Shown piece by piece: positions 23,201-45,196 of a DNA stretch of 64,000 nt. Position numbers and translations under genes: made by a program. The notes under the pieces were generated by a model. The model saw nothing but the letters and a program-made list of their open reading frames with translations, was not told where the DNA came from and did not search any database. Location: NCBI RefSeq assembly GCF_036588685.1, contig NC_086378.1, positions 64,976,001 through 65,040,000 on the forward strand, given 5' to 3'. This stretch comes from Mytilus trossulus. Its lineage: Eukaryota. The stretch's first letter is position 1, and each line of letters begins with the position of its first letter.

Positions 23201-26200
23201 GACTATGACGTACACAAATTTATATTACATTAGTCTTTTTTGTAAATAAATAATATTTGCTTTCTCAAAATTATACTGGCGTATGTTTAAATGAAACTGA
23301 CACGCATGGTTCATTATTCAATGTAAATCTAAAGTATCGATATAATTTTGTTAAGCCAGTGAACGTTAGCTCTGTCTTCCTCGGAAAATAATAGCTAATT
23401 CCAGATAGCAGATACAATTCTCATGACTACTTAAATTGAAATCTTAATATTGCTATAAGTCCTTACACATTTATCGACATAATCATAATTTTTTAAAGTA
23501 TCGTTATGAAAAGAGCTGTTAAATGAGGTAAGCTCAATACATATCACAACACATAAAACATCTCAATCTAGATGTAACACTGATGTCAGGAACATGTCAT
23601 ACTGGATATAGATACTTGAAGGTGGATCACAATGAATGAACCTCTAGGGACAAATAATTACTCCTCTGAAAATACTGAGAGGCGAACTTTTTACCGATTT
23701 GTTTTTTTCTTTCAGAGAGGACTTGCATAGCAAATAGAAAATAAATCCAAATATATATAATCATACATAAAATACTATCATTCAAAAGAATTTGAAATTT
23801 TGTTCGCACTTCGAAATGATAATACGAAACCATATTTTGGTATTGTGTGCAAATATTAGTTTCGCATATGGATACGAACTATTGTAAATGGGCAATCACT
23901 TTAGATATCTATTGTTATTGGAAGAGAGTTCAGTGTTGTGTTATACGCTGTAGACGGGCACTAAAATACTGTTATATGTAGACTTCAAAATTAAGAAAAT
24001 TAGCAAAGCTTGTTTAAAGAAAATTTGTGTAAAAGTAATACTGTAGACATAATCAACCAGTTTATCATCCTGCGTTCAACTATTCTGCTTATATGGTTAT
24101 ATGTCGTACCATTTAGCGAGTATGTGCAAAGCTCTTTTCAAAAACGTTTTTTCTGATTTTATGTATCTTTGGTATGATTCAAATGTCAGATTCAGGACCT
24201 TAAAGATTTGAATAGTATGCAATAAAACAAAAACCAGATATTTATCAAAAAGTTTATAGAAAAACCATGTCAATAAGACCTGTATCCATGCACCGGTTGA
24301 ATTGCCGATCGAAGTAATAAGGTTTAGGATAGAAATATAGCGTGTAGTCATTGCCTAAACTCACCGTTTCTATAATGGATTTAATGATGTGGCATGTAAG
24401 TACTCAATAGAAGCCAGTTATGCTAATTACATCACTGTCTGCACTTTCAAAAGTATGTCATACAAAGTATCTGATAGGTCACTTCGTAACATAACAGGCA
24501 TCGGCATTTGAAAGTACCTTTATTTTTTATTGAAATTGTATGCATCTGTGAATATAGTTGAAATAGTTTAGTTGATATCGTAACTTGAAAGAACTTTCCT
24601 ATTCACACTGAGATCAAACAAATTCCAACAGCAACAGAAACTAATATCATTAGTGCAGCGCATTGTTAATCATTTACATCAAAAAGATTGAACTGCAAAC
24701 TATTAAACCTTACAAGTGAAATGCTGGTGAAGTTACAAATCTCTATAACAGATTTGGATAAACAGCACCGACTTCGTTTGGGGATGCTCCGTGTATCAAT
24801 AACATATTGTTCAGCAGTGAGCTTTTTAATACGCGAGGTATTTTATTAGTATGCAATCCATTCATGGTTCCAGGTGAATAAGTCCCATGAAAATATAAAG
24901 TACACTGCTTTTCAAATTTATAGCTCATGATATAACTATGGAGTTTTTGTTTTCGTGAATGAAACTGAACAACACAAAGCGATGACAACATGCTTATTAT
25001 TTTTATAATCAACACACATTTTACTTGACGTAAAAGTACGTTCAGTTAGCATTAAAACTTTAATTTCAGCCAATTTATTGTACACTTAGTGTTTATTTTT
25101 AAAAAGAAAGTAAAAACAAATATTGAACTCCGAATAAAAGGACCGTTGTAACCCGTGCGACGTCCAAGCAGGTCTTCCCTTTGTTTTGTTTGTGTTCTTC
25201 ATGAATTAGCTTAAAACTACTGTAACGTTATTATCTTAGAAGGTCACTTACTGGATCCTAATTTTACAATCAAAAGATACATGTTTGCCTGTTTCTGAAA
25301 ACAGACGAATACAGATTTTAAAAAAATGCACATTTTCATATTTGAATACTTAAACCATATGGTTGGTTTCATCGAATATATTCATTACCGGTTACAATAT
25401 ACTAACAATTATTTATGGAGACATTAATTCGGTATCATAATTAAGATTATTAGGTTATTATATGTATAATATTACTTGTACCACGTAGATATTTCGAATC
25501 AGGATCGACATTTGAGCCTCAATTAAAGAGTGACAATAAAGAAATAATCGTATAACAGAATCAATATAACCCAAAGCAATATGATACATAATTGATTATG
25601 CAATAAGTAATCCTATATTGAACATTTGCTACTATAAATTGTTTATCAAATGGTTGAGTTGATCATAAAAAAATAAATCATGTCATAAACTAAAAGCTAG
25701 AACAAAGTATATGTGCAACCATTTGATACGTCAACGTCCTTTATATATCAATATTTCATTAAGTGTCAAAATTATCATAGGCTTAACATTTTGCAATGTA
25801 CCACAATACGATCGCAGTTTTAAAGAAACATCCACAATGCTTTACTAAGGAATTGTCCATTAGATTGACTGAAATTCTGTCCGCAGTGAAAGAGGGTCTT
25901 CAAAAATACTGTGAAACTGTTTACTCGCGTAGTGGTATTAACCATATCTGGATTCTTAAAAATTCTAAAGAACTTCTAGATAATTTTAAATCTCGGTCTT
26001 TTTCTGAAATTATTTCCATCAAAATTTAGATTTTTCAACCCTGTATACCACCATTCCCCATGTAAAATTGAAAAATCGCCTAAAAGAAATAATCCACAAT
26101 GCCTTTCAACATAAAAATGGTAGCATACGCTATAAATTTATTACTTTGGGATTTCATAAGGCAAATTTCGTTAATAGTGACAAACAAAAAGGTAAAACAT

Positions 26201-26706
26201 GCTACACAGAAGAACAAGTGGTCAGTATGCTGGAGTTTCTTATCGACAACATATTTGTTGAGTTTGGAGGTAGACTTTTCCAACAAATTGTCGGCATTCC
26301 TATGGGAACAAACTGTGCGCCTCTTCTTGCCGACCTCTTCTTATTTTCATATGAATCGGAGTTCCTCTAGACACTTGTCAAAAACAAGAGGATCAAAGAA
26401 GCCAGATTATTTAATTTCACTTTCAGATATATTGATGATGTTCTTTCCATAAACAATCCGAACTTTTCTGATTGAGTTCCATTGATATATCCCCCAGAAC
26501 TAGAGATTACAGAAACAACAGACATAGCTTCCTCCGCCTCATTTTTAGACTTATATCTCGAATTTGACTTACACAGTCATCTCAGTACCAGAATCTATGA
26601 CAAACGAGACGATTTTAATTTTGAAATTATAAATTTCCCCCACCTTAGTAGCAATATACCAACTGCACCTGCATATGGGATATATATTTCCCAACTTATT
26701 CGATAA

Positions 26707-27213
26707 CACTAGTAACCCGAATTTAGCTTGAACGGACAAAAACGTGTTAACGCTATTTAAATGAGATTAATTGTTATTTGATAAAGATTGACAAAAATTA
26801 AAAATTATTTTTAATTCATTTCAATTCATTTCAATTCATTTTAACGCCAGTCAAATAGATTTCTTTGCGGTGAATCAATTGAAATCAAGTTGCTGGTAAT
26901 GTACGTCAAACTATTAGGCCACGCCCCCGTTAAACTATTTCAAACTGGCATCAATTCGTTTTAAACATCGTTGAGACCCAAGCTTTGTACAGGTAAATCA
27001 CTCAAGCAAGACAAACTTGATTTATTTATCTTTTTTTTTTCATCAAATTTTATCGAATTTAGTTATATGCGTGTATTCTCAGTTAAGTCGCATGCTTCAC
27101 AATTTTTAACAAATGAATGCACAATACATGTGACATTTAAGAAATTTAGATAAAAACATTGAAATATTGATGCACGGTTTAAGAAATGTGAATCTGTTGA
27201 AAATAAAATAGTA
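26707..27213 (+). repeat. Left terminal inverted repeat (507 bp)
   Basis: Reverse complement of 43474-43980 with scattered mismatches. Contains AATTCATTT x3 and a GGCCACGCCCCC GC-box. Confidence 0.92.
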
Positions 27214-29167
27214 GAATGTATAACATAATTTGAATTTGCCAAAATGCTGTAGATCTTTATCTCACATATTCGTTTTAAAAATTGTTAAGTGCTAAGAAAA
27301 CTAGTGGAATCTAAGTAACGTGTGGTACCTTGCAATTGCTTACGAGACTTTAGGTATTCCTGAATATTTATCGTTTCTGTTTTTCTGTTTTACTATTTTG
27401 TACTCTTAAATTAGATATGTAACGGAAATAATAGTAACTTCACAGAAATTATTCATTGCGTATATAATTTAAATCTTATATTTTCGGTAGACAACAAATA
27501 TTCACTAGCTGTATATTAATATATGAAATTACTTGTAATGAAAAACAATGTTTTGTTAAATAATAAAAATGATGAAGATAATGTTGACATTTGTTGAATT
27601 TCAATAATAAACAGTTAAGTCTTGCTCAAAATTGTAAATGAAGTAACAGATCAATGAGCTTTTAAACTGAGTTAAATTGTAATACCGGTCGCTGGAGCAA
27701 AACATGCGTAAATTGTGGAAGAGCATATAGTGGACGAGCATATTGAAGCGTTGTTACGATTCGTATATTATCGTGCTATCATGCACCTTGACGTACAAAA
27801 ATTCTTGTAATAAATGAACATGTATCCTGTATATATGAGATAAGTTTTAGTTTGCGATAACACCGGGTAGGTTTAGTTAAACGATCTTGACTGGCTATTA
27901 GTCGGCATTCTCTTACGCCTTTTAATATACTCTAGCGTTAAATCAAGTCTGTTAAGACTGTTTTGGAAAAATCTAGACCAATCATAAAAAGTAACGTCAG
28001 ATCGGGTCAAGATCCGTTTAGTGTGTCAGAATGATATTAGGAGTTACGCCCTTTCATGTGGATGATACTGTAACATTCATTGTATTATAAATGCTAAAAT
28101 AAAAAAGTATATTATTTTTAATTATGAAACATCAAAATTAATCATTCGTTGATATTATTTAAAAAAAAAAAGGAATTGAAATTTGTAAACGTAACACTAA
28201 TAAAAGAGTAACAACAACATCTAATAAATTTCATACGTCTAATTCACGTTTCTGGATTTTACTTCATCAGGAACGATCAATAACGCAAAATACAAATATT
28301 TTATATGTAAGATCATTTATATAGTTGATTTCGTTATCCTCTTTAGGCCGCATCAGGGAACCGTGTCTTCGTTTGAACTAAGCTTCTGAAACTGCTCTTA
28401 GGCCGTGAAGTGAGAGAGATAAAACTATAATAAAAACAGAAATGAAGGACCCCGTCAAGATCCTCATAGATTTAAACAACACATATGTATGACCTAAATT
28501 TAAGTGTAGCATTGAGTATATGTCTTAGTCTCTTAGTACATTTGTTTGTAAATGCGCTTATCCTATCTTTCATTTGAATAAAAAAAATATTTAATATAAA
28601 TATGTATTTATTTGTTTGTTCAGATTGCACTTTTATAAATAATTCTTCTTCGTCTTCTACCTCTAAACTGTAAAATTAGCGTATGTGTGCGTTAAATATA
28701 CGGTCTATAAAGATTTAGTTCGATGGCACTTGTTAATAATCTAAAGGTAATAAAATGAACGATCCATAAAATAACGTGGCAATTACAATGGCTATTTCAC
28801 AGTGATATCATGGTTACGTTCACTCGTAATGGTATCATACATGTACCTCCGTATGTGGTGTATAAGGTTCTAAATCATGTTTTTATAGCTTCTTTCAAAC
28901 ACTATTGACGACGTTGTTCAAACTACATGTACATATCACAAAACCGCAAATTTAATATAGTTAAAAAGATTATACGATATTAAAAATGCATTTTTTTCTA
29001 TCAAAAATGTAGGGTCGTGTATTTGTAACTCTAAGTGTTTACCTAAAATGTATTGAATTGAAAAAGAATAGATCTGTTCTCAAATATTAGACAAAAGAAA
29101 CATTTTCCGAAAAAAAAATCCACATAATAACGTTTTGTCCTTTAATTCTTTTTTGGGGTGTCCGTTA

Positions 29168-31567
29168 AAATACCGCAAAAGTCCCCCTTAGTGCACTAAG
29201 AACAAAAAAATACACTTAATGACCTGATGGAATGATTCAATTGACACAAAAGACATTGCATATATAAGTCAACGTTTTAAAAATAAACAATTTCAAATTT
29301 TATAATCACATTTTAGAAAGTTATTTTATATTTTATCGACACGCGCCACACTCAGTTGACAGTAATATATAGAAATTCATGTTCGTTCAACCTTGACCCG
29401 TTTTGAATACACTTGTATACTTATTAAGAATGTATATATTTTGTTATTTCGTGTTGTTTTTGTTTTTTTTTATGGTATAGTTATTACTGCAATATCTATT
29501 TTGCTTTTCTAACTGTTATAGTTTTTACTTCTATGTAAGAGTGTATTTTCTTCTTATTTTTGTTTCTTTTAATTTCGTTTGCTTGTTCCGTAAGTTCACT
29601 TTTTTAAGTTCTGTAGAAATGTTTCATAAAGATATTTTGAAATAGTAAAAAATGTATAGAGATTTTATTTTAACCAACACATACTGATATAATAGAAGAT
29701 ATAAACATATTTCGCAAAGTATAATAGTCTATTACATTTTTGTTGAGCCTTCCGACTTTTGTTGCAATAGCTATGATCTACAAACCACAAAACATTACTC
29801 TGTGTGTAAAGTGTTTGAAACTTTAATTACTTTCTTAACTATCCTGGATTTCTAATAAACTAGGACAGAAGCTTGTTTATGATTAAGATAGCTTAAAAAA
29901 AATGTTTATCCGTATTTTTATTTATAACTGATTTTTTTGGTTTTCAAGTTCTGTAAGCTGATATACATGCACTCTGTTTAGAGTTTAAAAAAAAAACACA
30001 TTTCCCAGTCGGGGCCTTTTAGAGATCGGTCGACTATATGGAAGGGGTTTTCTCGTTAATGAAGGCCGGATTGTTGCCTATAATTGCTTATATCCACTTC
30101 AGTTTAGGAGGTTGAGCGTACACACACATGCATGCTTATCACGCCATCTTCTTTCTGTGAAAATTCCAAGTCAGTGACTTGTAGTTCAGTGGTTTCCGTT
30201 GGTTCATGTCTTGCATATTATTTTATTTTTGTTTTTGTAAATTGTTGTTTTTTTCTAGATAAGGCCGTTAGTTTTCCAATTTAATTGTTCAAAATTTGTT
30301 TATGTTGGGACCTTTTATATATATATATATACCCTATTATAAGGTATGCTCGCCTAATATAGCTTATATGTGTACATCCAATTAATTTGATGGATAGTTG
30401 TATAATTGCAAATCATATCACTTCTCCTTAATTTTTTTTTATTGAAAATGGGCTTTGATAAGTTGGACAAGCGATTGTACAGGAAAGGCCCAAGTGATAG
30501 TACAGTAAACTCGCAAACGATTGTACAGTCAATTAATTTATCCGATATTGAAAAAAATATTATTTGTGAATCCCTACTGGTGCAATGGCTTTTAAACTTT
30601 TAGACAGGTAAGACCTTACAACAGAAATAGTACTTTTAAAATTTCTGGACTCAACGATGTGTATTTCAATGATTATTGACATTTTTATCGCTGTTGTGTG
30701 ACAGTTCTGATCGATATATTAAAAGCTCCTCCATTCGTGGAAAAACGTGTGTATGCATACGTCGTTTATTATTTGATTGGTTCATATATACATATAGAAT
30801 GTTTTGAATGTATAGAAGAAACGTTATATAGAATCATTTGATTCATCATTGGAAAACTTTCCATGTTGCAACTTGTTATATTTTCGAATGTCGAAAATGT
30901 AGAAACCGTACAGTTCCGTTCCCACACAATATAATAATAATGTAATCGGGTTTTTAAGATCCCCACGGATGCCACATTTTCCCATCTTCATCTCTATCAA
31001 TCTCTTATGAAAGTATGTACAAATGTAAACTCCTGTGTTGTTAAGAAGGACATGAAATATCGGAAGATTTTTTTTCCTCAAATTATAATCAATCAAAATT
31101 TCCTTCTTAAAAGTAATCTTACAATTTCCCTTAAAACAAAATAAAAACTCTGACACCCACACAAAATCATTTTTTTAAATTATTCTTTCATCAAGTTGAA
31201 AATAAACTACGCTAAATCATTAAGTTTATTCTACAACTATCATAAACTTATCAATTAGTAACGATCAAATGACCATTGTTTATTGGATAAGGTTGACTGA
31301 ACATTAATGCTTGGGAGTTTGCAATAAGCCTTCGGTCACGTGCCTGGCACATGGGATGCGCTGATAAAAAAGTAAGTCAATTTCAAAATTATGATATATA
31401 TATTGATACCCAAATTTATATTTATGAGTTATATACTTATATCTTCTCATATCCATGTTTGTGGTCTAATAACATCGTGTTAATGTCCTTAGTGCAAAAA
31501 CTTTGTTCTTAATGCACCAATGATTTGTATAGTCCTTCAGTGCACTAAGAAGTCCTTTGTGGTATTT
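29168..31567. mobile_element. Possible old TIR element nested in the CACTA-ended element
   Basis: AAATACCGCAAAAG...TTAGTGCACTAAG at 29168-29200 is an imperfect inverted match to CAGTGCACTAAGAAGTCCTTTGTGGTATTT at 31538-31567. Confidence 0.35.
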
Positions 31568-31825
31568 CTACACATCGTACAAAATTTGGCTGTGATCAAA
31601 ATGTTAAAAAAAAATTACCCATTTATTATAACAATTTTCTAATGTTTAAGATTAAATTATGCAAGAAAAAGTGTCTTTGTTTTCTGTCAAAATGATTTTT
31701 TTGACATAAAGTTGTCGATAAATAAATTGGATACCCTGCATTTCAATAGCATATTATCAAATTGCTGAAAGATCACCTACATTTTCTTAACAGGGAATCC
31801 GTTATTAATGAAACCCCCTGTCCTT

Positions 31826-32258
31826 TAGGGTGAATGGGGTATAGAAATATGGTCACTTGGTCTTCTCCCGACCGGCAGTAAAACGCTTGCCGAAATGGGG
31901 CGTCCGTTTGGCTGTGCGGGATGTATCAAGTTCGCAGTCACGTCCGGTCAGAAGGGGGATGTGAAATCCGATGCCTCGTGTAAAGAGACTGCAACGCTCT
32001 TTGCACGTTAAGAACCCTTGCAACAACTCTTTTGAGGGGTCCGTAGGTGGCCTGTTGCAAGGCAAAATTTCTGTTCCTATACAAGGTAACCTCATTTTCC
32101 AGTGGCAGTCCAAATTTCCCTGACCATCATCCCAGATGGCCTCTATCGTATCAACCTACCTAGTGTATTTATTGTGAACTTGTTCTCGTCCTGAATATGC
32201 ATGAAATATTTGCGACTGGACGTTAAGCAACAAACAATCAATCAATCATTCAATCAAT
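31826..32258 (+). mobile_element. SINE (Nin/Deu-domain-like), 5' truncated
   Basis: TSD CCCTGTCCTT (31816-31825 / 32259-32268), (CAAT)n tail, TGCACGTTAAGAACCC core, and GC-rich relative to flanks. Confidence 0.75.
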
Positions 32259-34794
32259 CCCTGTCCTTAATAATTCAATTTGTCGTTCTGCATTATTTTG
32301 GCGTAAGAAAGACGCACACATTCAGGCTAACGCCCTTAAACTGTATAGAATATAGATATAGGAAGATGTGGTGTGGGTGTCAATGAGACAATTCTCCATC
32401 CAAATTACAATTAATGAAAGTAAACCATTGTAGGCTTATGTACGGCCTTCAACACGGAGCCTAGGCTCGCAACGAACAACAAGCTATACAGGGCCCCCAA
32501 ATTACTAGTGTAAAACCATTCAAACGGGAAAACCAACGGTTTAATAGTTTTGTATTCTATATAAATTCCCAGATAGGTTTCTTCATTCGTGTCCCTTACA
32601 CCCACACCAATAAGCTGTGATTTCTGTGTGAATAAATATTTTTAAAGTTTCAAATGAAGTGCATGGATGTAAGTAATGATAGGCAACCGCAATGCCTTCA
32701 ACAATGAGAAGAATACATAACGTTTAATCGGCTTTAAATTGTCCCGCTTGATGATTATACGTTGTTGTTTCCTATAGAGAAATAAATTATCGATTTAAAT
32801 TATTTTTTACATCATAAAAAAGGGTACAATATCATAAAATCAATTTTGTGAAAAACGATGAAAATTTATTGACCCCAATATAAATTTGAACCCCTCTTAA
32901 TCTTTCCCTTGTTAACGAGCACAAAATTCAAGGATCCCTAATTTTTTTAACTGTCTTTATGAAAGTTAGCACCGACGGTTAGCTTTACACTAGTAAGTTT
33001 GTCTTAAAGATAATTGGCTTTGTGTTATAACTGTCGTTACGTTGCTGTCTTGCGGACGAATACCCGAAATCTCTGTGTCATCAGCAATCATACAGAAATG
33101 ACTTTATATCGGGTTATTTGGTTATTTAATACTCTGTTCTTTGCATAGAAATAATTCTTCGTTAATCCAGAGACATATATATGTCTCTGGTTAATCTGAG
33201 CATTGAAAGAATACTTCATATCACAAGCTATAAATATGGATACAAAAAAAATCTAAGCGAAATTGATAATACCGCAAAGCATGAATAAATGTGTTGTATT
33301 TCAGTAAATAACACTTGTTTTCGTTTGATGTAAACATGTTTTAGCCCATCATGCATTGTTTCTTGTTTAGTGGATTGGTAAAAAAAGCGCCCAAAAAAAA
33401 AGAGTTCAAAATAAATTACGTCACACGTTAATACATTATAACAAATGCTCGGACATACGTATGGTAATTCATGCATATCCTAAAAGGTCGTGTTCTCGAT
33501 CTGTTAAAACGGAAATGACACGGCCGGGTATTGTAAAGGTTTGAGGGACTTTTAATGTCAAATTCATATCCCTGGGCAACGAAATTATCGATTTGTTAAA
33601 AAAACACCGTGTTTACGCTGGTGTCTTCCTCGAATGCCAACATTTTATATGTTACCTATTCCTTGAATGCCAACACAAATATTTCTGTTTTTATAAGTAT
33701 TTAACTTTAAAAAATAATTAGTGAACTTGATGAAATTGTAACATTAATTTTTATCCCATTTTGATAAGAAAAGTAGCAAAATTTAAGGGTTAAATAATTA
33801 TGAATATAAAGATAGAAAGAAAATGATTAATAAATAAATTTGGGAATGAACAAGTTTTATTAACATAAGACATATATATAAATATAACATTTATATTTAG
33901 TTAAATATAATTATTTCAAACTAAAAGAGGATATTAGAGATTTATTTTGTTCCATATTATTATAAATATTTATTTGTTAAGTATATATACATGAATTATA
34001 TGAATATTTCCATAAAATAGGGTACTAACAAGAATTTAGTCTATAGCGGATTGATTTTTTTAGTTAGCTGTCAGTAACTGCAAGTTTTCTCAGAGGATGT
34101 ACTTTACAAGTGTTTTTTGTTTGTTTGGATATACAAGAACCTGACCACGTCTATTCTGTGTAGTATTTCTATTTATTTACATCTGATGAGTTAAACCGGT
34201 TTCATCTGATTTGTATAGTTAGTTCCACTATGTGGTATGGGCTTTGCTCATAGTTGAAGACTGTACGGTGGCCTATACTTGTGAATTTCTGTGTCATTTG
34301 GTCTCTTGTGGAAATTTGTCTCGATTCCAATCAAACTACATTACTTTGTTTTATAAGAACACCGATGATTTGCGAACACGATAAACCCCTTACCAGTATC
34401 ATTTCATGAATCACTTGCAAAAAAGTGTGTAGTATTATTACCAAGAAAAATATCCTGAACAAACTGAACATAATACATCAATAGTATTCTAACACGAGAT
34501 ACAAAGTTTCAAGAAATTTAATCAAGTAATATGGTAGGATGCTACAGCACACACAACTATAGAAATATTGAAAAAAACCTTCAAAGTCCAAAGAGGCTTC
34601 ACATTTGTGTAAACTGGAATTTCTCACAATATGCACATGTGATGCAACACTTTTCAAGGTTTCATTTTAAGAGAATCCATATTCGTTCAAGTAGTATCAT
34701 CAGAAACAAAATTCAACAACGTAACAAACATGAATTAGATTTTAACTATCTGTTTAATTATGCCTCGTAATTATGTTCGAATTCAATTCGAATT

Positions 34795-35125
34795 AAATAA
34801 AATTGAGAATGGAAATGGGGAATGTGTCAAAGAGACAACAACCCGACCAAATAAAAAAAAACAACAGCAAAAGGTCACCAACAGGTCTTCAATGTAGCGA
34901 GAAATTCCCGCACCCGGAGGCGTCCTTTAGCTGGCCCCTAAAAAACAGATATATACTAGTTCAGTGATAATGAACGCCATACTAATTTCCAAATTGTACA
35001 CAAGAAACTAAAATTAAAATAATACAAGACTAAGAAAGGCAAGAGGCTCCTGACTTGGGACAGGCGCAAAAATGCGGCGGGGTTAAACATGTTTGTGAGA
35101 TCTCAACCCTCCCCCTATACCTCTA
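34795..35125 (-). repeat. Dispersed copy of the 3' end of the Penelope-like element at 45197-46110
   Basis: Direct match to 45197-45530 (GAATGTGTCAAAGAGACAACAACCCGACC...GACTTGGGACAGGCG). Confidence 0.85.
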
Positions 35126-35997
35126 AATGTCCATTTTTGATAAGCATGCTCTCGTGTTGTGATAACTTTTTGCACCTATTCCTCGAAAGCCAACATTATT
35201 TATAGGTAAATTGTCGGTAGATCAAAGGATGTTGGCATTCAAGGAATAAACCTATACGCTGACTTATAAAAGTGTTTTAATCTTTCATGCTGTCTAGTCT
35301 GAGCAATGTTTGTAGGACGTTATAAATAAAAAAGGAAAACCGTCAAAACATTATGTGAACGGAAAATACATGGGCTTTGCATACGTGTCTCAAACGATTT
35401 AGAAAATCTAGAATATGTGTGAATAATGAATATTTATATTATTTAGACTTTAATATTGTTGTTTTTTGAATATTGTATCTACAAGTTCATGACGATTTAG
35501 AGCTTGGCATTTCGTGTAGACACATGTTTCTTGTTGAAGACTAAACATGCGGTCTTGATTTACCTATAGTGTTTTTGTCGTTTGGTTGCCGTCAAATTGA
35601 ATTATATCCCATATCTCTTATATTATGAGCTTTAAAATCAGCTTATAAGAATTCATTATTGAAAGGTTTATTTGCAATTCTATATGAATATGCCGTAATA
35701 TATTTATCGGTGTGAGCTGTACCACATACTTATATATGAACTTTATTAATTTCGATCTAAAAAAAGTTCCTAGATATTTTAAAAAGTCTTAATAAATTCC
35801 AATGATCACAAATCTAATCTAAATCCACTTTTTTCGTGATTCTAACATACGTTGTTCCTTTTTTTTTGGTTTATTTTTGTAGTAATTTGCTAGTCAGTCA
35901 GATTCGGATTCCGGGTGACATTGCGTACGCTTTGTCCTTTGATTTGAAAATACATAATTTTAGCATTATTTTTTTTTTTATCTTTGCTACGCTCGAT

Positions 35998-38900
35998 AGT
36001 TTAAGTTTAAACATATTTTATTGTCCAAAAACATTGACAATAGGATTAGACACAAGTTTTGCAACTTATAACGTATTCTCCATTACATACAAATAATAAA
36101 TAACCGAACAAAAATGAAATACATAATAATAACATCATAAACAATATTAATATGAAGACATGAAACTAACGAGAATTTAAACGACATGACTCATCTATTT
36201 CTAAAAGTCGAGTTGTCCGTAAATTTTTATGATAGACCTACCTGGTAGGTTGTATTAATCTTGGAATAAATATTCCCTCAAAAGGTAAGTGTTTACTGTA
36301 TTTTAAACAAATAAGTTAAATTGTTGTTGTCAACTGATGAATTATATACTAAAATCAAATTGATGATCCATGTCTTAGGAAAAAATGAACAATTTCATTC
36401 GAGGTCAACAAAAAGTAATAATATTGTTATTGGTATATATTTAACCATAATGTCTATAAACTATGAAAAGCGATTGGTCTCTTTAATATAATTCTGCACT
36501 TTTATAAAAATTACCCTGTTTATGTTAAAAGTAAACAAAGCATTGCCGTACATTACATTTTCAAAGTCAGTAGGTATATTTTCTTTTCTAAGTTCAAAAA
36601 ATAAGGTATTCCTTTGCACTTTATAATTTTTACACGAGAGGAAATAATGTTGGTCATTTTCGTACAAATAACCACATTGACATATTGCGTTAGTTTTAAT
36701 ATTAGCGTGATACAGATCCATGTTCAGGGCACTGCATTTGTTCCTTAATCTTGCGTGTTAAACATTTAAATATCTATCGCCAATATTGAAATATGTAGGG
36801 GGTGATTTGTTTTTATAATATTTCTGTTTAATTTTCAATTTAAACATATTTAAAGAAAGTTCATTTCTAACACTTAAATCAAGCGAATTCCACAGTTTGA
36901 TACTAGATGGAATAAATGATTCCTGATAAAGAGACAGTCTGCTAGAGGTTTGGTATATATTTTGACTGCTTCGTAGATTGTAATTGTTTGTTTCTGCAAC
37001 TGTAGGGGGTATTAAATCTAATAAATATTCTGGAGCATCCTCTTTCATAATTTTGTAAAATAAAGTTAATTTCTTAACTTCCCGTCTAATCCTTAATGTT
37101 TCCCATCCCGTCTCTAAATAAAGTGATTGAGTGCTAGCATAGCTTGTTAGACCAGTGACAATACGTGCTGCTTCCAGTTGTAATTTTTCTAATCTTTCAG
37201 AATTCAACTGTCCGCAATTATCCCAAACTTCAGAAGAATATTCTAGAACAGGCCTTATAAAAGTTAAATATATTTTTTCTAAATATTCCCTTTTTAGTCG
37301 GAATTTCAAACGTCGAAGAACATTTAATTGTTTTGATACCTTTTCTATTAAAGAATCGACATGCTTGGTCCACTTCAAATACAATCACTGCTAAAAAATA
37401 TGCCTAAATGTTTATGACTAGTAACTGTATCTACCTGAACTCCGCCAAAATTAAAAATCAAGTTATTTTTTGAATTTTTGTTACTAAATAACATGATATT
37501 AGTTTTATTTGGATTGAATTTAACTAGCCAATCATTTGCCCAGGAATTAATATTTTGTAGATCGATATTTATCATAGATTGGAGAGTAGTTACATCTGGA
37601 GCAGTATGTCCAATAGATGTATCGTCTGCAAACATTCTACTTAATCCAATCATATCATCTGCAATGTCATTAATAAATATTAGAAATAAAAGAGGACCCA
37701 GTACCGAACCCTGTGGAACACCAGCTTTAAGATTACCTAATTCTGAAGTCGCATCTTTTAATACTACCCTCTGAGTTCTATTTGTTAAGTAACTTTCAAT
37801 CCATAATAACAGATTGCCTTTTATACCATATCTTTCTAACTTAAGAAGTAGACCCCTTATCCATACTCGATCGAATGCCTTGCTTACATCGGCAAAAGTT
37901 AAACTTGTATAGAATTTATTGTCTAAAGCATATACGATAGAATGATACATCTCAATTACTAGTAGTTGATGAAAAGTAGAGCAGCCGGGTAGGAAACCAG
38001 ACTGAAATTTATACAAAAGTTTATTAGAAACTAAATGATTGAATATATGTTTATATATTGTTTTTTTCTAGTACCTTGCTCACGCAAGAAAGAAGTGATA
38101 CTGGTCTATAATTACACGGCATTGACTTATCTCCATTTTTAAATAAAGGAATAACATATGCCAATTTCCAATCTTTAGGAAATATATTTTGAGAGAGCGA
38201 TGATTAAAAAGAATACATAAGGGAAGTGCAATCTCATTTTTTACTGCTATAAGCATTCTATTACTAATTTTGTCTGGACCAACAGCTTTATTTGGATCTA
38301 AAGTAGAAATAATATCTTTAACATCTTCTAAAGTTACTGTAATTTCAGACAAAATGTTAATACCTCTATCATCGAAGTCGGGCAAATTTTTGTTTTCTTC
38401 ATCTAGACTAGCTATTGAACAAAAATATTTATTTAGAATATCAACTTTTTCTTTTGCATCATAAGAAAATTCATAATTATTACTAGGGTTTTGCATCGGT
38501 GGAATATCATTTGAAGATCTGTCTTCTTTTAATAAGGAGTTTATTATTTTCCAATATACTCTACTATTCGTTTGCTTTAGTTCATTTAAGTTTTCATTAA
38601 TATTATCATAAAAGTTTTGTTTAATTTGTTTCTTTAAATTATTCACTCGATTTCTTTGGTTTTTAAATTTCTTTTCGTTTGTCATGCTTTTATTTTTTAT
38701 AAATATTTTACGAAACCTGTCTCGTTTTCTTATTTCTTTACGGAGGTTTGAATTAAACAAAATTTTATCATTAGATCTAATAATTACTTCTTTTTTCGGA
38801 ATGCAAGATTCTGTCACTTTTAAATTCGTCCGTAAATATATTGCAAGATTCATGGATGCCAATATCGTTCTCTAGTAATTTATTCCATTCAACCTCTGAA

Positions 38901-40144
38901 ACCATCTGTTTCATTAAATTATAATCCCCCCTTTTATAGTCCCATATTGTACGTTTGAAACTCTTCGAGTTGCTGAATCCGCTTCTGACTGTTATATAAG
39001 TACCTTCATGATCACTTATGTCTCTATTGATAGGTATAATACTCGAGTCAATAAATTGAATGGAATCAGTTATCAATATTGGGTCTAATAAGGACAACGA
39101 TCCAGTCCGAGAATCAAAATGAGTAGCATCGATAATTGTATTAAATAGACCATTTATACTTAGTAAATCACTGATACAGTTAGGTAGGTCGAGAAGAAAA
39201 TTTTTATTTAGATCACCCAAACAAATAATATGATTAGTTTCGTCTGATGCCCTTTTCAACATCATATCATATAACGACCAAACATTGGACGGTGAAAAAC
39301 GTTCAGGGGCCTGTTTATCGAAACTGTCCTAAGATCGGTCATAAGAATTTCTTAGGACAGAAGTTAGGATAATGTTAGGACCGACTTACGACACGTCTCA
39401 GCATGCACATTGAAGCTATCTTATGAATATCTTAGCTAGGACGTCCTAACTGATGTCCTAAGTATTAGCGGAAAAGAAAATACAAACCAAATATGAAAAA
39501 AACTAATTATGATATAAAAGATGTATTTTATCAATAATTTTATTTTAAATATGGTTAATTAGAATCTAATAACTAATATCATGTAGTTTTAAATTAAAGG
39601 TAATAAATATTTTTTGTAAAATAATTGTACAGTTAAACTGTGTGAAACAAAACATGACACAAAAATAAAAAAAATTACAAACTAACTGTAAACAAGATAT
39701 ATAATACGTAAAAACATGTTTTTGAGTGAGTTGAATTCGAAATGTCACATTATTAAACAGTTCAAATGCAAATCTCGTGCATTATTCATATCATTACGGA
39801 GAAATTCAACTATTTTTATTACTGCTTTAAAAATAATACGCGTGAAAATGAACAAAAGACTAAATTTGAATGTATCCTAAAGTAAGGACCATCCTAAGAC
39901 CATCTTAAGACACCTAAATTGGTATCCTAAAGTTAGGACAATTCCTATGATTTGCGACATGTTTGATAAACCCATTTAGGACTCAGATGTGTCCTAAGTT
40001 GGTCTTAGGACACGTCCTAATCCTAAGAGAGCTTCGATAAACAGGCCCCAGATCGATAAGTTATGTTTATCAGTATCACGTGCAATTTTGTTTTCAACTC
40101 AAACCACATAATTTCTAGACTATCATGCTCCAAATCAATGTTTT
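35998..40144 (-). mobile_element. 5'-truncated non-LTR retrotransposon (CR1/L2-group; APE endonuclease + RT), decayed
   Basis: ORF fragments 38777-39265 (GDLN, LLDPIL, SDH), 38080-38862 (KAVGPDKI), 37375-38016 (QSGF, DVSKAFDRV, GVPQGSVLGPLLF, FADD), 36758-37384 and 36461-36721 (CQCG..E...H....C). 3' AATAAA plus TAAAC-type tail. GCTCGAT flanks both ends (35991-35997 / 40145-40151). Confidence 0.92.
39307..40048. mobile_element. PIF/Harbinger-type MITE inserted in the LINE endonuclease domain
   Basis: TIR GGGCCTGTTTATCGAA / TTCGATAAACAGGCCC with CAG TSD (39304-39306 / 40049-40051). Removing it restores ...NITYRSERFSPSNVW. Sub-terminal CCTAAG/CTTAGG arrays. Confidence 0.9.
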
Positions 40145-40470
40145 GCTCGATGTTTTTGCTTCCGCTGTATCAAAGCTAGTGAATTAGTCAAAATGTCCGT
40201 ACAATGTATAGTAATATTTCTCTTCATGACTTGTTTATTCTTCAATATAAGCGTTGGCTATTTTTATCTGACAATTTCAAATTTGTCTAGAAAGTTCGCT
40301 GTAGTGTTCCATAAATGTCTTAGGGCTTAGTGCACCAAAGCGGCCTGGTTGGGTTTTAGACGTACCGGCAAGTCCCTTGCCCAAAATAGCACAACCGTTT
40401 TTTTTATGATCATTTTTTTTTAATTGCTGGGACTATCATACTAATAGCATAATAGACCCCGTTAAATCTG

Positions 40471-41130
40471 GGGTGGTGTTCTCGAAGCTATCTTAGAGGT
40501 AGTACGTGTCCTAAGTCTATCTTATGACAACTCTTTGTCCTAAGTCGTGTTCTCGAAGCTCTCTTAACTTATGATATATCTCATTTTTCGTCCTAACTTT
40601 AGGACACCCAACAAGGTGTCTTAAGAGCATCCTATCTTCATCCTAGTGTAATAAAGTTTGGATTTCGCTTTTTGCTCATTATTTACGTGAAAATGAACAT
40701 GAAATGAAAAGCACCATCGGTTATTAACTCGTATATAAAGAAAAGGTGAATGATTTTAAACTTTGAACTTCGTGTTTCACGATACGATTATACTAAAAAT
40801 TTAATTCTCTTTTCAAAACAAATTGTTTTCCAGTTTAAATAACAATCTTTTTTTATATAATTACATTGGAAATTATGCAATTTATTCTGTACATGTTATT
40901 ATAAAATTCGTAAATAATTGTATTCAATATTTTCGTCATTTATAAATGTTTTATCAACAAATATCTGTATTTCGATTTAGGATATGTTTATAACGTCCTA
41001 ACATAAGATTCGTCTGAGATAGTTTCGAGACACAACTTAAGATTGTCCTAAGTTGATCTTTAGTCCGTCCTAAAATTGGTCTTAACTATGACTTAGGACG
41101 AATCTTAGGAGACTTTCGAGAACACCACCC
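40471..41130. mobile_element. Second Harbinger-type MITE with CCTAAG/CTTAGG sub-terminal arrays
   Basis: TIR GGGTGGTGTTCTCGAA / TTCGAGAACACCACCC, flanked by CTG and CAG (CWG). Confidence 0.85.
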
Positions 41131-41790
41131 CAGAGCTCTACCGTTAAATAGTAATTATTATTAATGTTATTATTTTATTTTTTACGCTGTCTTAATTTGT
41201 AAATAATTATTAAGTATAATATGTATAGTATAGCGTCGTGTAAGTCATTTTTGGGCTAGACATTGTTTGCTTTATAGTGTATTGAATAATTTTTTATTGC
41301 AATCAATTTATAATTCATTACAAGGAAAACTAAACTAAGTGGACCGTATGTTATCGCATACTAGACAGCTGATTGGATAAATATGATAGGCTGTTACGCC
41401 TACATTGATACTGATGTCCAATCGAATACCAGCAGACACCTGTCAGTAAAAAGAAATTTCAAGCGTGGATAAATTAGAGATTTATTTGTGTATTCGATAT
41501 TTGAAAAATAAGTTAAACTATTCGTTTAATCTTTTTTAGGTGAATTTCAAAAACTGTTTTTTTCACTTTCTTATGGGAAGGTATTTAAATATGAGCGTAC
41601 CACATGTAACGGAATTTTACAAGCATTTTATATAGCGAATTGTGTTTTCCGGAACGTACTATTTTCAATATTTCACAGACCTCTGAAAAAATTAGATCAT
41701 ACAGGTTTCATCTACCATGTGCATAAAAAGCACTATCAAATTTTATTTATAAATTGTAAAAGATTAAGAATATTTTTGTATATGTACTAA

Positions 41791-41898
41791 ATAATCTGAA
41801 ATAAACTGACAAAACATATGGTATTTCTCTCGGCCTGAATTCAATCGTAATCTGAAATAAAACAAAACATATTTCTCTCGGCCTGAATTCAGTCGTAA
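41791..41898 (+). repeat. Local tandem duplication (~50-57 bp unit)
   Basis: TAATCTGAAATAAA..CAAAACATAT..TTTCTCTCGGCCTGAATTCA occurs twice in succession. Confidence 0.8.
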
Positions 41899-43473
41899 GC
41901 AAATTTTCATACTTTTTTTTTTTTTTTATCTATTTGCAAATGACGAAGAATTCTCCTTAAGCTGTGATTCATTAATATTTAATATTACTTCCATGATTAA
42001 ACCGACAGACTAACTTTAAAGGACAAAATACAAGCGTGTACTACCAGCCAAGGAAATGAGTTTAATTAAAGTAACTAATCTAAGTGGTCATCGATGTGTA
42101 ATATTTGACACTGGGCATTATTTGTGGACCAATGCAATAAAAATAATGTATACTTTTAATCAAAATTGAATACTTTTGAATGTAACAATATGCTACAAAT
42201 TCATTTGATTCACTGAATTTTTATATTTTTTTTTTATCTAAATGAAAATGTAATAAACGGCTCCCGTTTAACATAAATAAGAAGATGTGGTATGTGTGCC
42301 TTTGAAACAACTCTCCGTCAAGTCACATGGTATAATTTAATTAGAGGTCAAAAGTACGGCTCAGCACGGAGCTTTGGTCCTCATTGAGCAGCAAGCTATA
42401 ACGGTCCCTAAAATGACAACACAATTAAGATGGAAAACAGAAGTATAATCTATAAGTACGGTCATTTCGCTACGTTATTTCGTCCATTCCAAATTGCAAG
42501 AAAGCGTCTCACTGTTTATCAAAATGAGTAGTAACACTGGTGCCTAAAAAAATCTGATTCGAAACTGAAATATAAACCATTAGATTTTATTAATCGTGTC
42601 TTAACTAACGTTGTTTGATATTTTTTCTATGATATGATTAACTCCTGTATTTATTTCGTGCTAAAAATATAACGATAAAAAAGATCAATGGAGTTATCGA
42701 CATCGGTCTTTATATGTATATAATGGTCAATATAAACTGTCAATTAAATTTTTAAAATATACTTATATTGTTGTTGAATTTATTTAAAAAATAAAATGAT
42801 GTTTTTTTTGTAAATGTAATAATTCAACCCGGTTTAACCTTTTAAATTTTATATAAAAGATAAAACATGGAACTTCATTTATCATACGTCCATTACGTTT
42901 ACGAATGGGTAACTGATATTAGAGTATAAGGCAGCATATCATTCGTTAATAAACTTCAGAAAAAAAACACAATTTGTAATCTGTGGTTTGAATTTTCGTC
43001 AGATGTGCCACTGACATAATGGCTGTATTATGGGTGAAATATTTGCCACTAGACGTTTAGTAAAACCCATTCAAATCCAAATCAAACCGCTCTATTTGAT
43101 GCAAAAGAAACGTGACAGGCAGTGCTATCGAGGTATATGATCAGATTTTTTTCAGCCATCAGTGCACATGATGAAAAATTATAAGTGATGCACGAAAAAA
43201 AAGGAGATGTAAGATATACGCCAATGAGACAGCAACCGAACTACGGAAATAACCGAAAACCATCTAAAGGGAGACGTGTCGACTTCAACAAAAGACAAAT
43301 ATTCCAACATTATGTCTTATAAGTGCTATAATCAATTATTAATTTCGGCCAGAACTCGGACATCGTAGAGTCTATACATTTGTAACATATTGGACTTTCA
43401 TGTTAGTGACGTATCGCATTGAAACATGAACGCGGACCTCGATGAGAACAAATGGATTGAAAGTTTGCAAGTT

Positions 43474-43980
43474 TACTATTTTATTTTCAACAGATTCACA
43501 TTTCTTAAACCGTGCATCAATATTTTAATGTTTTTATTTAAATTTCTTAAATGTCACATCTATTGTTCATTCATTTGTTAACAATTGTGAAGCATGCGAC
43601 TTTACTAAGAATACACACATTTAACTGAATTCGATAAAATTTGTTGAAAAAAAAACGATAAATAAATAAAGTTTGTCTTGCTTGAGTGATTTACCTGTAC
43701 AAAGCTCGGGTCTCAACGATGTTTAAAACGAATTGATGCCTGTTTGAAATAGTTTAACGGGGGCGTGGCCTAATAGTTTGACGTACATTACCAGCAACTT
43801 GATTTCAATTGATTCACCGCAAAGAAATCTATTTGACTGGCGTTAAAATGAATTGAAATGAATTGAAATGAATTAAAAATATTTTTTAATTTTTGTCAAT
43901 TTTTATCAAATAACAATTAATCTCATTTAAATAGCGTTAACACGTTTTTGTCCGTTCAAGCTAAATTCGGGGTACTAGTG
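43474..43980 (-). repeat. Right terminal inverted repeat (507 bp)
   Basis: Reverse complement of 26707-27213. Confidence 0.92.
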
Positions 43981-45196
43981 TAATCAAGAGCTTGCAGCTC
44001 CTACTCAGACTTTGTAAAAAGTCATCAGTGTCTGAAAGTTGATGAACCAGGGATATGTCAAAGAACGTCTCGTCCTTTTTCTAAAAAAGTTCATCGGAAG
44101 GTATCAAGACCTTGTTGATAAATATTCCGTATCAACTTCTCAAATAATACACGATGGTCTTGATGTATAGATTCTGCGTATTGATGTTGTTTATCATCTT
44201 AACAACATGTTTTAATGTTCTTTCATTTGTCTTTGTTCTTTTATTAATATTACTTTTACTGTTGAATGGTTTTATGTTATATCAGTTTGACGTGGCTCGG
44301 TACTTATACATCTCGTCAATGTGTTTGTATAGGCTTTCATTTTTTTGTGGTTTGTTTTGAATATGCGACTTTTTGTATTTCTTTTGTTCTTATTACGTGA
44401 CTCTGTAATTTAAAAGATCCCGTCAGTATTATATTGGTCTATTATATGTCATTATGATATATTTCTATTATGAATTACATATACGTTGAACCACACACGT
44501 CAAAATCATTCAATCGCATAGTGGTATTAACTATTTTTGGATTCTCATAAATTCTACCTATAACTTTTGGACTAGTTTGAATATCGGTCTATTTCTGTAA
44601 TTTATTCTTACATACTTTTGATTTTTTAACCCTGTATGCTTACATTGCCTATATAAATTTTAAAACTGTTTGTATGCACATTGAACGACAACTTTATGTG
44701 ACGTATAAAATTTTCTGACGTCATACACTCAAATCAATTAATGTGTTCGTAGATAAAGAAGATGTTTTTGTGTTCGGTTAAATTGTCCGCTTTTGAAATT
44801 GTTATACGATGATGACTGATGTACCCTTATTTGGACTAGTTTATTAATTGTGACTGTTTATTTAACGCATCATGTAAATATAACGGAATTTGATGAGACT
44901 GTTATTAAAGTGAGAGGGTTAGCGCTATAGAACCAGGTTTAATCCACCATTTTCTACATTTGAAAATGCCTGTACCAAGTCAGGAATATGACAGTTCTTG
45001 TCCATTCGTTTTTGATGCGTTTTGTTATTTGATTTTGCCATGTGATTATGGACTTTCCTAATTGATTTTCCTCTGAGTTCAGTATTTTTGTAATTTTTCT
45101 TTTTACATGAAGATCAACATACTTTTACCTGGAGCATTGAAACAAATAAAAATAAAACACAAAAAGGAACGAAACATGGAATATACATTGATTGAT

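What the first reader, a model, noticed from the sequence alone, without database searches (positions are those of the whole stretch)
26707..43980. Giant 17.3-kb CACTA-ended element with 507-bp TIRs and no visible transposase
Seen: exact CACTA...TAGTG ends, a 3-bp TAA duplication, very long near-identical TIRs, and a clean insertion into a Penelope RT frame, which shows that the two ends moved together. After subtracting the nested LINE, MITEs and SINEs, roughly 10 kb of interior has no transposase-like ORF. Established: CACTA/EnSpm elements usually have short TIRs plus sub-terminal repeats and can capture host sequence in plants. Inference: an unusual large non-autonomous, possibly cargo-carrying family in a mollusc.
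Basis: partly seen in the sequence, partly recalled or inferred. Interest (0 to 1): 0.7.

Follow-up and report, generated by a model that had tools for sequence, protein, structure and literature searches.

The report
Giant gene-less mussel transposon, mover found
This 17-kb stretch is one copy of a multi-copy mussel jumping-DNA family with half-kilobase mirrored ends and about 12 kb of interior without any detectable gene, and it is likely moved by the intact EnSpm/CACTA enzyme of a 31-kb relative with the same ends elsewhere in the genome; no captured host gene was found in it.

Summary
Observation confirmed: CACTA...TAGTG ends at 26707/43980, 507-bp TIRs (96%), TAA duplication, in-frame split of a Penelope RT. 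It is a real family, not a chance pair. The genome has 161 forward and 163 reverse termini, and 37 of 42 elements with both ends carry a perfect, variable 3-bp TSD. Copies share a colinear 12.35-kb core (1-4% apart). The core shows no Pfam or Rfam hit, no codon-position bias and almost no RNA reads outside nested repeats.

The likely mover is in the same genome: a 30.7-kb element with the same TIRs, an ATA TSD and an intact 4-exon, 873-aa Transposase_21/DUF4218 gene. A 3.56-kb copy of its end elsewhere is 99.97% identical, which suggests recent activity. Both ends of the window family match the partner's 3' end. A second interior type (B) and an amplified A/B chimera also exist.

Cargo: nested LINE and MITE DNA is shared with sister copies, but two probes found no host donor, only 76-89% relics. 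This scan reported similar large gene-less CACTA elements elsewhere in this genome. Verdict: a large, long-TIR non-autonomous EnSpm family; ordinary mechanism, unusual architecture.

The parts
26093..26706 (+). Degenerate Penelope-like RT, upstream half (YIDD motif); host site of the insertion. Start is that of the open frame; the Penelope label is from recall of the motif, with no Pfam hit
26704..26706 (.). Left target-site duplication TAA
26707..27213 (+). Left TIR, 507 bp. Outer ~250 bp about 95% identical across family A, family B and the autonomous partner; tandem 10-mer x3 near 26806-26845
27214..27927 (+). Left subterminal region; together with the TIR, 89% identical over 1.2 kb to the partner's 3' end (inverted)
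27928..36002 (.). Family-A non-coding core, left part (117-bp insert at 31060-31176). Embedded dispersed repeats at about 30166-30319, 31827-32250 (SINE-like, very high DNA/RNA depth), 32342-32545, 34065-34361, 34791-35126
36003..40144 (-). Nested LINE (RVT_1 at 37378-38067), broken, flanked by a ~7-bp duplication; contains a MITE at 39307-40048; partly shared with copy C8:1.898 Mb
40145..40468 (.). Family-A core fragment between the two inserts
40469..41130 (.). Nested MITE shared by the window's close subfamily, absent from the others
41131..42908 (.). Family-A non-coding core, right part
42909..43470 (+). Right subterminal region, 76-88% identical to the partner's 3' region (its positions 27537-28386); ends in part of a 120-160-bp module that occurs three times in the partner
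43474..43980 (-). Right TIR, 507 bp
43981..43983 (.). Right target-site duplication TAA
43984..44160 (+). Penelope-like RT, downstream half (SRACSSYS...), in frame with the left half

Best explanation
The stretch is a gene-less member of a multi-copy mussel EnSpm/CACTA transposon family, likely cut and pasted as one unit by the transposase of a 30.7-kb partner element that has the same ends. Shown: the ends, 3-bp TSDs at unrelated sites, a colinear 12.35-kb core, no coding or transcription signal, and a partner with an intact DDE gene. Inferred: (1) the partner's enzyme binds the outer ~250 bp of the TIR, the part conserved across subfamilies and identical between the partner's own two ends; (2) both ends of family A descend from the partner-type 3' end and were trimmed by separate internal deletions, leaving a 0.5-kb TIR; (3) the interior is old neutral DNA that has ridden in this lineage for a long time, gaining SINEs, LINEs and MITEs and losing blocks, and new master copies arise by exchange between families (A/B chimera).
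For: Family: 161 forward and 163 reverse termini, 0 in the reversed-pattern control. TSDs: 30 of 34 elements read in full (plus the window), 3 of 4 end-only pairs, 4 of 4 further pairs = 37 of 42, with 19 different triplets among 30. Core colinear in 19 family-A copies; p-distance 1.1-2.0% within the two tight subfamilies, 3-4% between, 8-9% to the oldest complete copy. Majority left and right TIR bases differ at 13 positions, all at or inside position 240; L-L 1.8%, R-R 2.1%, L-R 3.9%. Partner G000:C8:22195295-22225975: TSD ATA, TIRs 91% alike, four GT-AG exons in phase, 873 aa without a stop, with ALFTDG / CDIP / CxxC / HLLHH / YERVN motifs. It is 98.7% identical to an independently annotated 872-aa Mytilus protein with Transposase_21 + DUF4218. 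Only 2 loci encode this transposase at >=98%; the next full-length ones are 55% or less, and the one of these whose ends were found has different 65-bp TIRs. A 3,559-bp copy of the partner's 3' end at another site is 99.97% identical with a different outer flank. Older relative L199 links TIR + 3.4 kb of partner-type end to family-A interior at 76-78%. Six elements join A and B halves at the same junction region.
Against: Transposition in trans is not demonstrated. RNA reads over the transposase exons were 0-3x in four runs from a possibly different mussel species, with no splice joint among those shown. Family A shares only its ends with the partner; the partner's 5' subterminal DNA exists in just 2 copies, so A is not a simple deletion derivative of today's partner. 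The second partner copy (C13) lacks the exon with the catalytic E and had no right end within 70 kb. 5 of 42 pairs lack a matching TSD. About 10 kb of the interior has no assigned origin. Only about 60 of some 160 end pairs were inspected, biased toward ends most like the window's.
Confidence: 0.85

Rival explanations
1. Pack-CACTA / composite capture: two inverted copies of the partner's 3' end landed around ordinary host DNA and moved it as one unit, so the interior is captured host sequence.
For: Both ends of family A match the same (3') end of the partner. Families A and B have largely unalignable interiors between related ends. Core GC (31.4%) is close to that of the flanks (32.1%), and it holds typical dispersed repeats. 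TIR length varies by subfamily, from 0.5 kb to about 1.2 kb.
Against: Two core probes (29 and 50 matches) found no intact donor. The 9 regions without a terminus in 20-30 kb hold 76-89% fragments, several joining left and right core pieces 11-12 kb apart, as deletion relics of the element would. No exon, Pfam, Rfam or RNA signal. Short islands are shared among A, B and the partner's 3' interior, which points to common descent.
Confidence: 0.2
2. The core hides a spliced or non-coding functional gene (helper or regulatory RNA) that explains why 12 kb is kept.
For: The core is kept near full length in many copies (about 11-12 kb in 12 of 19).
Against: Copies with 4-7 kb internal deletions still have both ends and a TSD. 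Only 2 of 85 ORFs >=40 aa stay open in all copies, and the top 15 show no third-position bias; 18-23% of deletions are multiples of three. Divergence is flat along the core. Unique-core RNA depth is about 0-1x.
Confidence: 0.05
3. Two independent solo TIR repeats happen to face each other, or the structure is an assembly artefact.
For: Solo and truncated ends exist. No sequencing record listed spans the whole stretch laid.
Against: Same interior, same order and distinct TSDs at many unrelated loci; left- and right-specific TIR alleles; in-frame split of a Penelope frame; the interior is also held by independent public runs.
Confidence: 0.02
4. It belongs to Chapaev3 (CAC ends, 3-bp TWA TSD) and is moved by a Chapaev enzyme.
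For: The window's own TSD, TAA, fits TWA (PMC4079192 passages).
Against: Only 3 of 30 TSDs are TAA or TTA, and the partner's enzyme is Transposase_21 + DUF4218.
Confidence: 0.02

Closest known systems
EnSpm/CACTA superfamily in the CMC/CMCT clade (PMC12730594, passages read)
   Same: [quoted passage not shown]
   Different: The window element has no transposase; 0.5-kb TIRs; a 12-kb non-coding interior.
Plant non-autonomous CACTA elements, e.g. sunflower Tetu1 (PMC7139988, passages read); large Triticeae families such as Jorge (its size and gene-less nature are recalled; the passages read in 10.1101/363192 gave only its abundance)
   Same: CACTA/TAGTG ends, 3-bp TSD, no transposase, cross-mobilisation by an autonomous partner.
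   Different: Plant TIRs are given as 10-28 bp with arrays of 10-20-bp subterminal repeats. Here the TIR is 507 bp, and only one short tandem 10-mer and a 120-160-bp module were seen.
Animal Pack-TIRs (PMC8277862, passages read)
   Same: A TIR element with a long interior that spreads by repeated transposition with distinct TSDs.
   Different: Pack-TIRs are defined by an identified parental host copy; none was found here. Multicopy cases in that survey were few (four in reference genomes plus Ssk-FB4).
Paralogous mussel EnSpm element at G000:C14
   Same: CACTA ends, 3-bp TSD, the first three transposase exons at matching positions (55% identity in exon 1), large size (19.1 kb).
   Different: 65-bp TIRs of unrelated sequence, so the long TIR looks specific to this family (one paralogue's ends seen).

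Membership tests
EnSpm/CACTA (non-autonomous) | 5'-CAC(TA)...(TA)GTG-3' termini | tested here: met
EnSpm/CACTA (non-autonomous) | 3-bp target-site duplication of variable sequence | tested here: met
   37 of 42 two-ended elements
EnSpm/CACTA (non-autonomous) | Autonomous partner with the same termini encoding a Transposase_21 DDE enzyme with C(2)C and H(3-4)H | tested here: met
   C8 partner, 873 aa, motifs present
EnSpm/CACTA (non-autonomous) | Mobilisation in trans by that enzyme | not testable with these tools
   inferred from ~95% identity of the outer TIR
Plant-type CACTA end architecture | TIR of 10-28 bp | tested here: not met
   507 bp; about 0.5 kb in the partner
Plant-type CACTA end architecture | Arrays of 10-20-bp subterminal repeats | tested here: inconclusive
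   8-mer counts over 1.3 kb gave only AT-rich words (at most 5 copies) and one tandem 10-mer; no shuffle control
Plant-type CACTA (two-gene autonomous element) | Second, TnpA-like gene in the partner | tested here: inconclusive
   Minus-strand exons with Mytilus homologs and no Pfam family; gene model incomplete
Pack-TIR / Pack-CACTA | Interior matches a parental host locus not flanked by the TIRs | tested here: inconclusive
   Two 30-nt probes found only relic fragments; a whole-core genome search was not possible
Pack-TIR / Pack-CACTA | Captured gene fragments or chimeric transcripts | tested here: not met
Chapaev3 | TWA target-site duplication | tested here: not met
   3 of 30
Polinton/Maverick (long TIRs, 15-20 kb; features recalled) | 6-bp TSD and integrase/polymerase genes | tested here: not met
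   3-bp TSD; no such ORFs

The most novel reading that the evidence does not exclude
Mussel EnSpm ends act as a composite transposon: two inverted copies of one half-kilobase end capture 10 kb or more of host DNA, spread it to tens of sites and swap interiors with other such elements. This would make a still-active vehicle for large structural variants, and possibly for the hemizygous, dispensable DNA of mussel genomes.
Probability: 0.2. Interest if true: 0.62.

Novelty: new variant of a known kind. Interest (0 to 1): 0.35.

Why it matters
Cut-and-paste elements that move 6-30 kb units with no coding use show that this EnSpm enzyme tolerates a very large load. The likely intact enzyme and its end sequence are now identified, so the load limit and the role of the conserved outer 250 bp can be tested directly. 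Tens of young 9-30-kb insertions (1-2% apart) are a plausible minor source of the structural heterozygosity reported in bivalves (10.64898/2026.02.10.705023, passages read). With about 50 to 100 large copies (a rough estimate from the probe counts) they make up well under 1% of the genome. The mechanism itself is a known one.

Tried and rejected
Hidden transposase in the core: tblastn with the partner's 873-aa protein gave no hit at E<=1 in any of the 33 gene-less elements; masked tblastx against the partner and four paralogues gave only a LINE RT match. Gene cargo: Pfam on 65 core ORFs, none over cut-off; Rfam 0 matches at E<=0.5; ORF-retention and codon-position tests negative. Transcription: two RNA runs (6% and 18% of reads laid) show depth mainly on nested repeats, with no spliced joint among those shown; these may be another mussel species and unsuited tissues, so this is weak for germline expression. 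Immune genes near family ends (Mab-21, AIG1, C1q) were tested as cargo and rejected: no partner TIR within 50 kb; these loci were picked because they had ORFs. Large copies (23-33 kb) tested as autonomous candidates are family A or A/B with nested elements. Chapaev3 and Polinton were rejected. The empty-site allele at this locus could not be tested: the stretch laid left out the right flank. Literature: 8 searches found no description of this family or of long-TIR mollusc CACTA elements. Repbase and Dfam are not available here and may hold it. The Yuan and Wessler paper was not held.

Full report
1. Observation. The element starts CACTAG at 26707 and ends CTAGTG at 43980, flanked by TAA on both sides. 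The arms align over 507 bp at 96% and then stop. The left flank ends a reverse-transcriptase frame (...RYIDDVLSIN...AYGIYISQLIR) that resumes in frame after the right TSD (SRACSSYS). The joined junction exists uninterrupted 341 times in the genome. Calling it Penelope rests on recalled motifs. A LINE (RVT_1), two MITEs and a 117-bp insert are nested; sister copies and DNA contigs lack them.

2. Family. The window is G000:C6:64976001-65040000 of a 1.3-Gb genome; the closest named protein homologs are from Mytilus mussels. The terminal 31-mer with up to 3 mismatches occurs 161 times forward and 163 times reverse, and 0 times in the control (only 100 places listed). Of 34 elements read from end to end, including the window's, 30 have a perfect 3-bp TSD. 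With 3 of 4 end-only pairs and 4 of 4 later pairs the total is 37 of 42. Lengths run from 0.5 to 33 kb, and one pair without TSD is 50 kb apart. The sample is biased toward ends most like the window's.

The 34 fall into these interiors: family A, the window's type (19 copies, 12,353-bp colinear core); family B (7 copies, interior largely unalignable to A); an A/B chimera (6 copies joined in the same region, so it spread as a master); one other type; and one transposase-bearing element. A further chimera was seen later. A-core probes match 29 loci (left part) and 50 loci (right part, shared with chimeras). Copies differ by 1.1-2.0% within the two tight subfamilies, 3-4% between them, and 8-9% from the oldest complete copy. 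Solo or truncated ends also occur: of 20 further termini read 10 kb inward, 2 were small complete pairs and several kept only 0.1-0.4 kb of TIR.

3. TIR anatomy. Across 14 A copies the majority left and right bases differ at 13 positions, none outside position 240. Mean distances are L-L 1.8%, R-R 2.1%, L-R 3.9%, so the two ends are inherited as a pair. The outer 260 bp is about 95% identical among A, B and the partner, and the partner's own two ends match the window's at the same positions there, while inner parts fall to 75-89%. I infer that the outer ~250 bp is the working end. No plant-type array of short subterminal repeats was evident (no control); a 120-160-bp module recurs up to three times in relatives.

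4. The likely mover. Transposase_21 matches 46 places in the genome. Two lie next to this family's TIR. C8:22195295-22225975 is 30,681 bp with TSD ATA and 0.5-kb TIRs. Four GT-AG exons in phase give 873 aa without a stop, with ALFTDG (205), CDIP (298), CxxC (318-321), HLLHH (629) and YERVN (652). This matches an annotated 872-aa Mytilus protein at 98.7% that carries Transposase_21 and DUF4218. The C13 copy lacks the third exon and had no right end within 70 kb. The next full-length transposases are 55% identical or less, and the one whose ends were found has unrelated 65-bp TIRs. A 3,559-bp piece at C8:15.96 Mb is 99.97% identical to the partner's 3' end but has another outer flank, which suggests very recent movement. 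RNA depth over the exons was only 0-3x.

5. Relation of A to the partner. A's left 1.2 kb is the partner's 3' end inverted (89%), and A's right subterminal 0.56 kb also matches the partner's 3' region (76-88%). The partner's 5' subterminal DNA occurs only in the two partner copies. An older relative (L199) has TIR plus about 3.4 kb of partner-type 3' end followed by A interior at 76-78%. The inference is that both A ends descend from that one end and lost different blocks; the direction of exchange between A and the partner cannot be fixed.

6. The interior. No Pfam family passed its cut-off in 65 ORFs, Rfam gave nothing, tblastx and tblastn found no transposase remnant, and ORF retention and codon-position patterns look neutral. 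RNA reads fall mainly on nested repeats; the unique core has about 0-1x. For a donor, 3 of the 29 left-probe loci and 6 of the 9 fetched right-probe regions had no terminus within 20-30 kb. They hold 76-89% fragments, several joining pieces that lie 11-12 kb apart in the element, as deletion relics would. Short islands are shared among A, B and the partner's 3' interior. So the interior has been in this lineage for a long time; whether it began as host DNA is open. The passengers that are shown are transposons: MITE2 and part of the LINE are shared with sister copies at other sites.

7. Comparison and novelty. Termini, TSD and partner motifs meet the EnSpm criteria in PMC12730594 (passages). 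The 507-bp TIR departs from the 10-28 bp given for plant CACTA in PMC7139988 (passages). The TSD spectrum excludes Chapaev3 (PMC4079192 passages). Pack-TIR status needs a parental locus (PMC8277862 passages), which was not found. PMC10294476 (passages) reports CMC elements across mollusc genomes; the passages shown did not describe large non-autonomous ones. Eight searches found no description of this family; Repbase and Dfam could not be checked, and supplements were not read. Unchecked notes of this scan describe other 12-14-kb gene-less CACTA-type elements in the same genome, so large size seems common here.

8. Verdict. A real, young, large non-autonomous EnSpm/CACTA family with unusually long TIRs, recombining interiors and an identified likely mover; host-gene cargo not found. 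New variant of a known kind; interest 0.35.

Noticed in passing
L082:886-1561, L081:9468-9773 and L083:3821-4036 (all minus strand; partner element C8): A second gene of no Pfam family in the partner. Three in-phase last exons lie upstream of the transposase on the opposite strand, with Mytilus homologs. A Cys-rich exon lies 6 kb downstream of the transposase; weak homologs sit 5-6 kb upstream of two paralogous EnSpm transposases. If these are one gene, the transposase lies in its intron in antisense.
   Followed up: partly
L204 (G000:C8:15.958-15.961 Mb): A 3,559-bp, 99.97%-identical copy of the partner's 3' end, cut off inside a small dispersed repeat, 2.7 kb from a C1q-domain exon; no partner end within 50 kb.
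   Followed up: partly
L190, L191, L204: Solo family ends lie within a few kb of Mab-21, AIG1/GIMAP and C1q genes. They are not enclosed by TIRs and were picked for having ORFs, so no enrichment is claimed.
   Followed up: partly
L086-L088, L114 (G000:C13:62.95-62.98 Mb): The defective partner copy runs into a long array of ~0.7-0.9-kb tandem units, many 99% alike, with one inverted unit further on.
   Followed up: no
L111, L099, L100 (G000:C14, 19.1 kb): Another complete EnSpm element with 65-bp TIRs, TSD ATA and a related transposase.
   Followed up: partly
L079:4692-6983: A nested 764-aa Cys/His-rich ORF with no Pfam hit inside a family-B copy.
   Followed up: no
L206 (G000:C8:55.121 Mb): A 515-bp MITE-like derivative of the family with TSD AGC.
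   Followed up: no
window 26887-26930 and the mirror site in the right TIR: The conserved outer TIR holds words that resemble a GC-box and a CRE half-site, and the repeated subterminal module holds CCAAT- and E2F-like words. These labels are recalled and were not tested.
   Followed up: no
window 14280-18864 (minus strand): A cluster of ORFs of 100-341 aa outside the element, probably another decayed mobile element.
   Followed up: no
G000, at least 10 loci: A family with identical scores and 861-aa open frames matching Transposase_21 weakly, suggesting another very young EnSpm-like family.
   Followed up: no
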